A stretch of 64,000 nt of DNA, from the NCBI RefSeq assembly GCF_051903065.1, contig NZ_CP178438.1, one strand, 5' to 3'. This DNA is from Escherichia coli. GTDB lineage: Bacteria; Pseudomonadota; Gammaproteobacteria; Enterobacterales; Enterobacteriaceae. A program made the position numbers. Below are positions 39,136 to 39,837 of the stretch, piece after piece. Each line of letters begins with the position of its first letter. The stretch's first letter is position 1.

Positions 39136-39837
39136 AGTTATGCGCAGATGCCTGATGCGACGCTTTGCGCGTCTTATCATGCCTACAAAACTGAACTTAA
39201 CCGTAGGCCGGATAAGGCGTTTACGCCGCATCTGGCATGAACAGTGTGCATTTTGGCAATAAATATGAAACCAACTGTCATGTCGGTTTTTTTAAAGGCC
39301 GAAGGTGGTAAACCTTCGGCCTTAGCGACGTTTCCTCAGTTATTCAATAAACTGACGGATCAGTTCCAGCAGCGCGATTAGCGCCTTAAGAACGATGAGA
39401 ACTTTATCGAGAAAAGTTTTCATCCGTTGCTCCCTTAAGGGAGAAAGACAATCACAGCTTACCCTTACGTTGCCTGTAACTATGATTTTCTTCATGTGCT
39501 AGATGAGGACTGCCTCTCTCCAAATTAGAGCACCAGAATCAGCACCACCTGTATCCTGACCAGGACTTAAAAGTACTTTTCCGCACTGCGGTAATCCCTT
39601 GAGGCAGTATCACTACTAGCGTCGGGATTGTATCGCCAACATAGCTGTTTGAATATGTAGGCATCCTGACTTATAATTCACTTGCTAGATGAGGACTGTT
39701 TCATTTCTGCCCGGAACCACCAAGTCTTGGGCGGAAAAAATAAAAAAACCGACTGTCATGTCGGTTTTTTTATATCTGTATTCTGGTGCAACCATTCTGT
39801 TCTCACGACAATCGCCGTTTCAGAATACCGCCCATCA

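What the first reader, a model, noticed from the sequence alone, without database searches (positions are those of the whole stretch)
39340..39771. Candidate type I toxin-antitoxin module: DinQ/TisB-like 27-aa peptide with a divergent sRNA
The minus-strand ORF at 39340..39423 encodes MKTFLDKVLIVLKALIALLELIRQFIE, a single amphipathic membrane helix whose ALIALLELIR core matches what I remember of DinQ. About 260 bp away on the other strand, a near-consensus promoter (TTGAAT, 17 bp, TATAAT) and an intrinsic terminator bracket an ~88-nt transcript. Its first 16 nt (tgctagatgaggactg) are perfectly complementary to the toxin leader at 39497-39512, or 20 of 22 nt over the extended tract beginning ttca. 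Divergent, non-overlapping, short 5'-end pairing to the toxin leader is the architecture of tisB/istR-1, dinQ/agrB, zorO/orzO and shoB/ohsC. I do not recall an annotated module of this kind between ybbP and selU.
Basis: partly seen in the sequence, partly recalled or inferred. Interest (0 to 1): 0.8.

Follow-up and report, generated by a model that had tools for sequence, protein, structure and literature searches.

The report
Second dinQ-like toxin–antisense RNA module
This is a real toxin-plus-antisense-RNA (type I toxin–antitoxin) module, but an ordinary one: an extra copy of the known E. coli dinQ/agrB system, whose toxin gene public databases already name "dinQ" in about a quarter of E. 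coli genomes.

Summary
Window 39251-39821 is a ~570-bp accessory module in the ybbP–mnmH(selU) spacer. It aligns end to end with the K-12 dinQ–agrA/B locus.

- **Toxin:** the 27-aa peptide passes NCBIfam's DinQ model (40.9 bits, cutoff 30).
- **sRNA:** the 88-nt RNA passes Rfam's AgrB model (53.6 bits, gathering 40).
- **Annotation:** RefSeq names the CDS "dinQ" at this site. The module is in 1326 of 5426 complete E. coli genomes, including HS and 042. Nearly all E. coli (5422 of 5426) also carry the canonical gor–arsR copy.
- **Literature:** chromosomal "dinQ-like" (dql) genes were described in 2016, and a plasmid member was validated in 2025.

New support found here:
- Across seven family loci, each sRNA 5' end pairs best with its own toxin leader.
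- Folding from the homology-inferred start site reproduces the published dinQ switch (5' lock, SD hairpin, alternative pairing).

Differences from dinQ proper:
- There is no LexA box, so the "damage-inducible" label is probably unearned.
- There is one sRNA, not two.
- Pairing is shorter (14-nt perfect seed; 18 Watson-Crick + 4 G·U of 23).
- The start codon is ATG.
- About 190 carriers, including ST69, have a 108-bp deletion that removes the toxin start but keeps the sRNA.

Verdict: already known, low interest.

The parts
39251..39821 (.). Whole accessory module: a ~570-bp insertion/deletion polymorphism in the ybbP-mnmH spacer
   Evidence: Genomes with an empty site (Seattle 1946, Trh52, MS20673) join ...GAACAG(C/T)GTGCA directly to CAGAATCC.... 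In the spread listing, most non-carriers (BLR(DE3), O157, O26, ST131) match only from window ~39833 onward.
39340..39423 (-). Toxin CDS, 27 aa + stop (MKTFLDKVLIVLKALIALLELIRQFIE), ATG start
   Evidence: ORF list. NCBIfam toxin_DinQ 40.9 bits, cutoff 30. 15/19 identical to K-12 DinQ over the core. RefSeq CDS 'dinQ', WP_349808740.1.
39430..39443 (-). Shine-Dalgarno hairpin CUCCC-UUAA-GGGAG (elements 3:4). SD GGGAG is at 39430-39434, 6 nt before the ATG.
   Evidence: Sequence. It is closed in the full-length fold, P(unpaired) 0.01. It aligns with the K-12 SD hairpin.
39443..39456 (-). Element 3 (mRNA nt 165-178, GAUUGUCUUUCUCC), the alternative partner of the target tract in 5'-shortened mRNA
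   Evidence: MFE folds of 5'-truncated mRNA pair nt 100-113 with nt 165-178 and dissolve the SD hairpin. Prediction only.
39499..39521 (-). sRNA target tract in the toxin 5' UTR (mRNA nt 100-122 if +1 = 39620). It overlaps element 2.
   Evidence: In register with sRNA nt 1-23: 14 perfect pairs, then 18 WC + 4 G·U + 1 mismatch overall. Same position as the AgrB site G88-A119 of dinQ (PMC5066626).
39601..39620 (-). Inferred toxin mRNA 5' end (+1 = 39620) and element 1, which pairs with the target tract (the 'lock')
   Evidence: +1 comes from alignment of GCTAGT to the mapped K-12 +1 GTTAGC, placed at L002:1483 from the published numbering. The fold pairs nt 1-20 with nt 103-123. Inferred, not mapped.
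39627..39653 (-). Inferred toxin promoter: -10 TACAAT (39632..39627) and -35-like TTCAAA (39653..39648), 15-nt spacer
   Evidence: TACAAT aligns with the -10 elements TATGAT, TATCAT, TATAAT and TATAAT of four homologous loci. S. oryzae has the same TTCAAA-15-nt arrangement. The promoter scan misses it because of the short spacer.
39649..39677 (+). sRNA promoter TTGAAT-17-TATAAT. Its -35 overlaps the toxin's -35-like hexamer back to back.
   Evidence: Promoter scan, 10/12. Aligns with the agrA/agrB promoters.
39685..39772 (+). AgrB-family antisense sRNA, 88 nt: 5' pairing tract, central stem-loop, intrinsic terminator (stem 39740-39773)
   Evidence: Rfam AgrB 53.6 bits, gathering 40, E 6e-8. 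Fold -32.8 kcal/mol, z -4.8. Terminator.
39295..39323 (-). Toxin mRNA terminator hairpin
   Evidence: 12-bp inverted repeat I3. Aligns with the K-12 dinQ terminator hairpin.
39255..39294 (+). Partial duplicate (83%) of the sRNA 3' end/terminator at the left edge of the module. It probably also ends ybbP transcription.
   Evidence: Direct repeat D1 with 39733-39772. Terminator-like hit. Function is inferred.

Best explanation
Window 39251-39821 is an accessory, second chromosomal copy of the dinQ/agrB type I toxin-antitoxin family. It is a 'dinQ-like' (dql) module, not the dinQ ortholog.

**What is encoded**
- The minus strand gives a ~326-nt mRNA with a ~197-nt leader. It encodes a 27-aa single-helix membrane peptide.
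- The plus strand, 186 nt from the target, gives an 88-nt AgrB-family sRNA from a strong constitutive-looking promoter.

**Proposed mechanism, by homology with dinQ**
1. The primary mRNA is translationally inert. Its 5' end (nt 1-20) pairs with the tract at nt 100-122, and the SD is locked in a CUCCC/GGGAG hairpin.
2. Removal of the 5' end frees the tract to pair with nt 165-178. This opens the SD hairpin and allows translation.
3. The sRNA 5' end pairs with the same tract. The SD hairpin re-forms, and the duplex becomes an RNase III substrate, so toxin synthesis stays off.

**What is shown here**
- Homology, family membership and anatomy.
- Complementarity, and covariation of sRNA and target across loci.
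- Predicted alternative folds.
- Absence of a LexA box.

**What is inferred only**
- Transcription and the exact 5' ends.
- 5' processing and RNase III cleavage.
- Toxicity of the peptide.
For: **Family models:** NCBIfam DinQ above cutoff. Rfam AgrB above gathering.

**Alignment:** end-to-end with K-12 dinQ-agrA/B and with five other family leaders. SL2, the target tract, SL4, the SD hairpin and the start codon are conserved.

**Pairing:** 20/22 repeat with a 16-nt perfect core. Duplex z = -8.

**Covariation:** in seven loci (window, K-12, Serratia oryzae, Pantoea stewartii, three plasmids) the sRNA 5' ends differ between loci. Each still matches its own target. The cognate is the best partner in 7/7 rows and 6/7 columns of the energy matrix. 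The sRNA-to-target offset is 181-189 nt in five of the seven, and 186 nt here.

**Folding:** from the homology-inferred +1, folds reproduce the 1:2 lock plus closed SD hairpin. 5'-truncated forms give 2:3 pairing.

**Conservation:** in 1326 of 5426 complete E. coli genomes, at least 99% identical in 1315, all chromosomal. Named dinQ by RefSeq/NCBI.

**Experimental precedent in the family:** DinQ/AgrB (PMC3567139, PMC5066626) and DqlB/AgrB of pOXA-48, including compensatory mutations (PMC12365149).
Against: - There are no expression data for this locus.
- The toxin promoter is weak by consensus. The -35-like hexamer has a 15-nt spacer and the scan missed it.
- sRNA-target complementarity is the lowest of the loci compared: 21/34 Watson-Crick, against 31/34 for AgrB. 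It is below the 25/34 of AgrA, which does not protect K-12 (PMC3567139).
- In truncated-mRNA folds the SD is only partly freed, P(unpaired) about 0.2, because it can pair with a conserved GCUCU.
- The module is absent from about 76% of E. coli. About 190 carriers have lost the toxin start. The toxin is therefore dispensable.
Confidence: 0.85

Rival explanations
1. It is a decaying, non-functional relic of a dinQ-agrB duplication. The sequence homology is real, but the toxin is not expressed or not toxic, and the sRNA no longer controls it.
For: - Pairing is the weakest of the family loci compared, 21/34 WC.
- The toxin promoter is weak.
- The module is missing from most E. coli.
- A 108-bp deletion that removes the toxin start, SD and part of the target is found in about 190 carriers, including ST69.
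Against: - The ORF is intact, with a better start (ATG plus AAGGGAG) than K-12's GTG.
- The sRNA promoter (10/12), central stem and terminator are intact.
- A contiguous 14-nt 5' seed is retained, which AgrA lacks.
- All predicted switch elements are preserved.
- It is at least 99% identical in more than 1100 genomes of very different strain backgrounds (commensal HS, enteroaggregative 042, O145, avian O78:H4).
Confidence: 0.1
2. The sRNA's main job is not its neighbouring toxin. It acts in trans on the co-resident canonical dinQ mRNA or on other targets, and the adjacent toxin is secondary.
For: - Predicted pairing of this sRNA with the canonical dinQ target of a carrier strain is nearly as good as with its own target over 23 nt (-29.5 vs -32.4 kcal/mol). 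Over 32 nt it is better (-38.3 vs -34.9).
- The canonical sRNAs pair poorly with this toxin's leader: -17.6 kcal/mol for K-12 AgrB and -23.7 for the AgrA-type agr that carrier strains have.
- The deletion variants keep the sRNA while losing the toxin.
- 5422 of 5426 genomes carry the canonical locus, so the two co-reside in essentially every carrier.
Against: - The only long perfect seed (14 nt) is with its own target. The canonical target has mismatches at sRNA nt 1 and 9.
- The cognate is still the best partner in the 23-nt matrix.
- The energies ignore intramolecular structure.
- Retention of the sRNA in deletion variants may simply reflect recent clonal descent.
Confidence: 0.05

Closest known systems
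dinQ/agrB (with agrA) of E. coli K-12, gor-arsR intergenic region (Weel-Sneve 2013, PMC3567139; Kristiansen 2016, PMC5066626)
   Same: - Homologous over the whole module: terminator, 27-aa peptide with the ALIALLELIR core, SD hairpin, leader stem-loops, target tract at about +90 to +120, and a divergent AgrB-type sRNA with the same body and terminator.
- The predicted 1:2 / 3:4 / 2:3 RNA switch is the same.
   Different: - Different chromosomal site, ybbP-mnmH; accessory rather than near-universal.
- No LexA operator: best candidate 11/20 with CAG changed to TAG, against 15/20 in K-12.
- One sRNA instead of two.
- 14-nt perfect plus wobble-extended pairing instead of 30/31.
- ATG start two codons upstream, and a C-terminus shorter by three residues.
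dql (dinQ-like) genes dqlA/dqlB of Enterobacteriaceae chromosomes and plasmids (Kristiansen 2016). DqlB/AgrB of pOXA-48 was validated as an addiction module (PMC12365149). Antisense RNAs were predicted in T1TAdb (PMC8594479).
   Same: This is the class the locus belongs to by definition: a dinQ homologue elsewhere in the genome, co-existing with dinQ, with a conserved 5' UTR and signature residues. Plasmid dqlB loci show the same sRNA offset and the same kind of pairing. pVP440, for example, has a 14-nt perfect run and 25/34 WC.
   Different: - The peptide scores below the DqlB model cutoff (24.5 vs 35) and above the DinQ one, so it is not DqlB.
- Whether it is one of the published dqlA sequences could not be checked, because the figure and supplements are not held.
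- It is chromosomal only: 0 of 1332 places were on plasmids in the E. coli genome set. In PLSDB three records cover at least 80% of the query; the one listed is a 1.2-Mb record filed as a plasmid.
tisB/istR-1, zorO/orzO, shoB/ohsC (other divergent, non-overlapping type I systems of E. coli)
   Same: They share the architecture: a small hydrophobic toxin, a long structured 5' UTR that needs processing, and a divergently encoded sRNA that pairs by its 5' end with the leader (general knowledge; PMC8594479).
   Different: No family match. The only Rfam OrzO-P hits are 24 and 19.5 bits against a gathering score of 60, over the terminator. Only the DinQ and DqlB models hit the peptide in NCBIfam.

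Membership tests
DinQ/AgrB (dql) type I toxin-antitoxin family | Toxin peptide matches the curated DinQ-family protein model | tested here: met
   NF041472 toxin_DinQ 40.9 bits, cutoff 30. NF041473 DqlB 24.5 bits, below its cutoff of 35. 15/19 identity to K-12 DinQ in the core.
DinQ/AgrB (dql) type I toxin-antitoxin family | Antisense RNA matches the AgrB covariance model (sequence plus structure) | tested here: met
   RF02891 AgrB 53.6 bits, gathering 40, full model 1-84, at 39685-39773 (+).
DinQ/AgrB (dql) type I toxin-antitoxin family | sRNA gene is divergent from and does not overlap the toxin gene. Its 5' end is complementary to the toxin 5' UTR upstream of the SD. | tested here: met
   Offset is 186 nt, against 181-189 in four other family loci. 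14-nt perfect run; 18 WC + 4 G·U of 23. Duplex z = -8. Shorter than the 30/31 of K-12.
DinQ/AgrB (dql) type I toxin-antitoxin family | sRNA and target co-vary between loci (cognate specificity) | tested here: met
   The cognate is the best partner in 7/7 rows and 6/7 columns of a 7x7 duplex matrix.
DinQ/AgrB (dql) type I toxin-antitoxin family | 5' UTR with four elements that form mutually exclusive pairings (1:2 lock, 3:4 SD hairpin, 2:3 open form) | tested here: met
   MFE and partition-function folds from the inferred +1 and from truncations. Leader alignment. Prediction only; the SD is only partly freed in truncated folds.
DinQ/AgrB (dql) type I toxin-antitoxin family | Peptide is toxic and membrane-targeted. 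The sRNA neutralises it by base pairing. The mRNA is 5'-processed and the duplex is cut by RNase III. | not testable with these tools
   These need expression, rescue and RNA mapping experiments. Shown only for K-12 DinQ and pOXA-48 DqlB (PMC3567139, PMC5066626, PMC12365149).
dinQ proper (the damage-inducible, LexA-regulated ortholog) | LexA operator over the toxin promoter (SOS induction) | tested here: not met
   The best 20-mer in 39430-39720 is AGCTGTTTGAATATGTAGGC: 6/8 core, 11/20, with CAG changed to TAG. That core level occurs 281 times in the window. The K-12 box scores 7/8 and 15/20. This is a consensus scan only, with no binding data.
dinQ proper (the damage-inducible, LexA-regulated ortholog) | Position between gor and arsR | tested here: not met
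   The locus lies between ybbP and mnmH. The same genome, ECNB21-M121, has a separate dinQ between gorA and arsR. This locus is therefore a paralog.
ZorO/OrzO | sRNA matches the OrzO model | tested here: not met
   OrzO-P 24.1 and 19.5 bits against a gathering score of 60, over the terminator only.

The most novel reading that the evidence does not exclude
This paralog may be a LexA-independent module that is wrongly labelled 'damage-inducible'. Its sRNA may be an asymmetric cross-regulator: it would repress both its own toxin and the co-resident SOS-induced dinQ mRNA through G·U-tolerant pairing, while the canonical Agr RNAs could not repress this toxin. Lineages such as ST69 deleted the toxin but kept the sRNA. 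They would then carry an 'orphan antitoxin' that dampens DinQ during the SOS response.
Probability: 0.12. Interest if true: 0.45.

Novelty: already known. Interest (0 to 1): 0.18.

Why it matters
It matters little for discovery. The family, its mechanism and the existence of extra chromosomal copies are published, and RefSeq already names this CDS.

There is some practical value:
- **The product name is probably over-propagated.** "Damage-inducible type I toxin DinQ" is applied to this paralog, but it has no recognisable LexA box. The partner sRNA is not annotated at all.
- **Strain differences.** Strains used as models or found in the clinic (HS, 042, O145, ST69) differ from K-12 in type I toxin content at this site. 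That is relevant to persistence and membrane-depolarisation studies that count type I toxins.
- **A natural test bed.** The toxin-deleted, sRNA-retaining variant and the predicted one-way cross-pairing with canonical dinQ offer a small system for studying antitoxin specificity.

Tried and rejected
1. **Genome-contig scan.** The scan for GCTGCTGGAACTGATCCG returned mostly chance hits in unrelated phyla, because 18 nt is too short for 298 Gb. Only Pantoea stewartii (L019), Serratia oryzae (L023) and some E. coli contigs were real family loci.
2. **tblastn of the peptide.** The 27-aa peptide against plasmids found nothing; I suspect the query is too short or was masked. A DNA 'distant' search worked instead.
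3. **First guess for the toxin start.** I placed the TSS at about 39598-39606 with a GATACT -10. Those folds did not reproduce the dinQ model. The multi-locus alignment showed the -10 is TACAAT, with +1 at about 39620.
4. **LexA regulation.** Considered and rejected on the consensus scan.
5. **Synteny of relatives.** YbbP, MnmH, Gor and ArsR gave no tblastn hit near the S. oryzae or P. stewartii modules. The family sits at unrelated sites.
6. **Supplements of Kristiansen 2016.** They are not held, so I could not check whether this exact locus is one of the 14 published dql genes.
7. **Literature searches.** Searches for dinQ + ybbP and for 'dinQ-like' found no paper that describes this locus.
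8. **Chance ORF or hairpins.** Rejected on the evidence.

Full report
**1. Observation**

- The minus-strand ORF 39340-39423 encodes MKTFLDKVLIVLKALIALLELIRQFIE. AAGGGAG lies 6 nt upstream of its ATG.
- On the plus strand, TTGAAT-17-TATAAT (39649-39677) is the only promoter-like hit in 39200-39850. A 14-bp stem plus T-run terminator lies at 39740-39773.
- 39491-39512 and 39677-39698 are a 20/22 direct repeat with a 16-nt perfect core. The two RNAs, transcribed in opposite directions, are therefore complementary.
- Duplex energy of the sRNA 5' part with the mRNA is -54.7 kcal/mol, against -28.4 +/- 3.3 for shuffles (z = -8).
- The flanking genes are ybbP and mnmH (selU).

One refinement: the sRNA most likely starts at 39685 (or 39684), judging by alignment with the annotated agrA/agrB starts and by -10 spacing. 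The perfect run inside the transcript is then 14-15 nt. G·U pairs extend the duplex to 23 nt: 18 Watson-Crick, 4 G·U, 1 mismatch.

**2. What it is**

Two curated models identify the parts independently.
- NCBIfam toxin_DinQ scores 40.9 bits, cutoff 30.
- Rfam AgrB scores 53.6 bits, gathering 40, full-length, at exactly 39685-39773.

The whole module aligns with the K-12 dinQ-agrA/B locus. The aligned parts are the toxin terminator hairpin, CDS, SD hairpin, leader, target tract, sRNA promoter, sRNA body and terminator. The peptide core is 15/19 identical to DinQ.

Distribution and annotation:
- The module occurs in 1326 of 5426 complete E. coli genomes. All copies are chromosomal, and 1315 are at least 99% identical.
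- RefSeq names the CDS "dinQ: damage-inducible type I toxin DinQ" at this site. Carriers include HS, 042 and O145 RM9872.
- The exact peptide is an NCBI "MULTISPECIES" DinQ protein seen on at least 1000 contigs.
- The canonical gor-arsR dinQ locus is in 5422 of 5426 genomes. It is present in the same genome as a 100% match to the window.

This is therefore a second, accessory paralog.

**3. Boundaries and alleles of the site**

- Genomes with ybbP and mnmH adjacent but no module define a ~570-bp indel, window 39251-39821.
- Most non-carriers in the spread listing match only from about 39833 onward. In K-12, from my own knowledge, the rhsD island sits there.
- A third allele is a 108-bp deletion between two copies of GATGAG(A/G)ACT (39393-39402 and 39501-39510). 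It removes codons 1-10, the SD, and part of the target tract, and keeps the sRNA. It is seen in GMM076 and ST69.
- The drop from 1314 to 1124 genomes with at least 80% coverage between two query designs suggests about 190 such genomes. This count is an inference.

**4. Mechanism**

For K-12 dinQ the published model (PMC5066626; PMC3567139) runs as follows.
- The +1 mRNA is inert. Element 1 pairs with element 2, and the SD sits in hairpin 3:4.
- Removing 44 nt from the 5' end lets element 2 pair with element 3, which opens the SD.
- AgrB binds G88-A119, which covers element 2. The hairpin closes again and the duplex is cut by RNase III.

I located K-12 +1 at L002:1483 from the published numbering. 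A six-locus leader alignment then showed window GCTAGT aligning with GTTAGC at +1. It also showed a -10 TACAAT (39632..39627) aligning with TATGAT, TATCAT, TATAAT and TATAAT. This gives +1 at about 39620 and a 197-nt leader, against 193 nt in K-12.

Folding from that start gives these results.
- nt 1-20 pair with nt 103-123, the sRNA target.
- The CUCCC-UUAA-GGGAG hairpin is closed, with P(unpaired SD) 0.01.
- In 5'-truncated forms, nt 100-113 pair with nt 165-178 and the hairpin dissolves.
- The SD is then only partly free, P about 0.2.

An earlier TSS guess near 39600 did not give this picture. The sRNA itself folds into a 5' tract, a central stem-loop and a terminator (-32.8 kcal/mol, z -4.8).

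**5. Covariation**

I collected family loci from Serratia oryzae and Pantoea stewartii chromosomes and from three plasmids. All have AgrB hits above gathering.
- The sRNA 5' ends differ between loci at many positions, yet each matches its own leader.
- In a 7x7 duplex-energy matrix the cognate is best in 7/7 rows and 6/7 columns.
- The sRNA-to-target offset is 181-189 nt in five of the seven loci.

This is the strongest computational evidence that the pairing is under selection. The window locus has the weakest pairing of the set (21/34 WC; AgrB 31/34; non-protective AgrA 25/34). It does keep an uninterrupted 14-nt 5' seed, which AgrA lacks.

**6. Differences from dinQ proper**

- No LexA operator. 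The best candidate is 11/20 with CAG changed to TAG, a level common by chance. The K-12 box is 15/20.
- Different chromosomal site.
- One sRNA rather than two.
- ATG start.
- C-terminus shorter by three residues.

The RefSeq product name "damage-inducible" is probably transferred without basis. The correct label is dinQ-like (dql), the class defined by Kristiansen et al. 2016 for dinQ homologues on chromosomes and plasmids, some co-existing with dinQ. T1TAdb predicted their antisense RNAs. A plasmid DqlB/AgrB pair was validated experimentally in 2025. No paper in the held library mentions this ybbP locus. I could not check whether it is one of the 14 published dql genes.

**7. Rivals**

- **Decaying relic.** Supported by the weak pairing, the weak toxin promoter, the patchy distribution and the deletion variant. 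Opposed by the intact ORF, SD, sRNA promoter and terminator, by the preserved switch elements, and by near-identity across more than 1100 genomes of very different strain backgrounds.
- **sRNA mainly acts in trans on canonical dinQ.**
  - The co-resident canonical target pairs almost as well as the cognate: -29.5 vs -32.4 kcal/mol over 23 nt, and -38.3 vs -34.9 over 32 nt.
  - The canonical sRNAs pair poorly with this leader: -17.6 kcal/mol for K-12 AgrB and -23.7 for the AgrA-type agr found in carriers.
  - The long perfect seed is unique to the cognate.
  - These energies ignore intramolecular structure.

**8. Verdict**

The finding is real and was correctly interpreted. It is a member of a known, published and database-annotated family. 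Novelty: already known. Interest: low. The residual points of interest are the missing LexA control, the unannotated sRNA, the toxin-deleted variant and the possible one-way cross-talk.

Noticed in passing
window 39393-39510; L005 (GMM076), L132 (ST69 O15:H18): A 108-bp deletion between two GATGAG(A/G)ACT copies removes toxin codons 1-10, the SD and part of the sRNA target, but keeps the sRNA. Comparing two coverage counts suggests roughly 190 of 1326 carriers have it. PGAP still calls 'dinQ' in some of them.
   Followed up: partly
L131 25370-26030 (canonical gor-arsR locus of ECNB21-M121) vs L002: This carrier strain has a single agr gene, with an AgrA-type 5' end fused to an AgrB-type body. 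Its dinQ target differs from K-12 at four positions and matches that sRNA (21 WC + 2 G·U of 23, -38.1 kcal/mol), whereas K-12 AgrB gives -22.2. K-12 AgrA, described as a degenerate copy, therefore looks like the cognate antitoxin of another dinQ allele.
   Followed up: partly
window 39255-39294 vs 39733-39772: The left edge of the module carries an 83% copy of the last 40 nt of the sRNA, its terminator hairpin. This may be a remnant of a second sRNA copy or a trace of how the module was inserted. On the plus strand it also looks like a terminator for ybbP.
   Followed up: no
window 38945-39242: The spacer downstream of ybbP holds a run of REP/BIME-type repeats. They are hit by Rfam naRNA4 (79 and 77 bits) and ES036 (49.6 bits). 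Their copy number varies between strains.
   Followed up: no
window 39648-39654: The sRNA -35 (TTGAAT, plus strand) and the toxin's -35-like hexamer (TTCAAA, minus strand) overlap back to back. The two divergent promoters may therefore compete for RNA polymerase. S. oryzae has the same TTCAAA-15-nt arrangement.
   Followed up: no
window 39393-39402 (inside the toxin CDS): The coding sequence AGUUCUCAUC (codons 8-11) is complementary to sRNA nt 4-13, with one G·U. This is a possible second pairing site. K-12 lacks it, so it may be coincidence (my reading).
   Followed up: no
L023 7388-7850 (Serratia oryzae); L019 2150-2589 (Pantoea stewartii): Complete dinQ-like modules with AgrB hits of 73.6 and 70.1 bits lie at sites with no ybbP/mnmH or gor/arsR synteny. 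The S. oryzae peptide, VKTLIDKVLIVLKALVALLELIRQFID, is closest to the window's; I count 22/27 identical.
   Followed up: partly
H73, CP061270.1 (PLSDB 'plasmid', 1.2 Mb): The only listed near-identical match in the plasmid collection is a 1.2-Mb E. coli record. I think it is probably a chromosome fragment filed as a plasmid.
   Followed up: no
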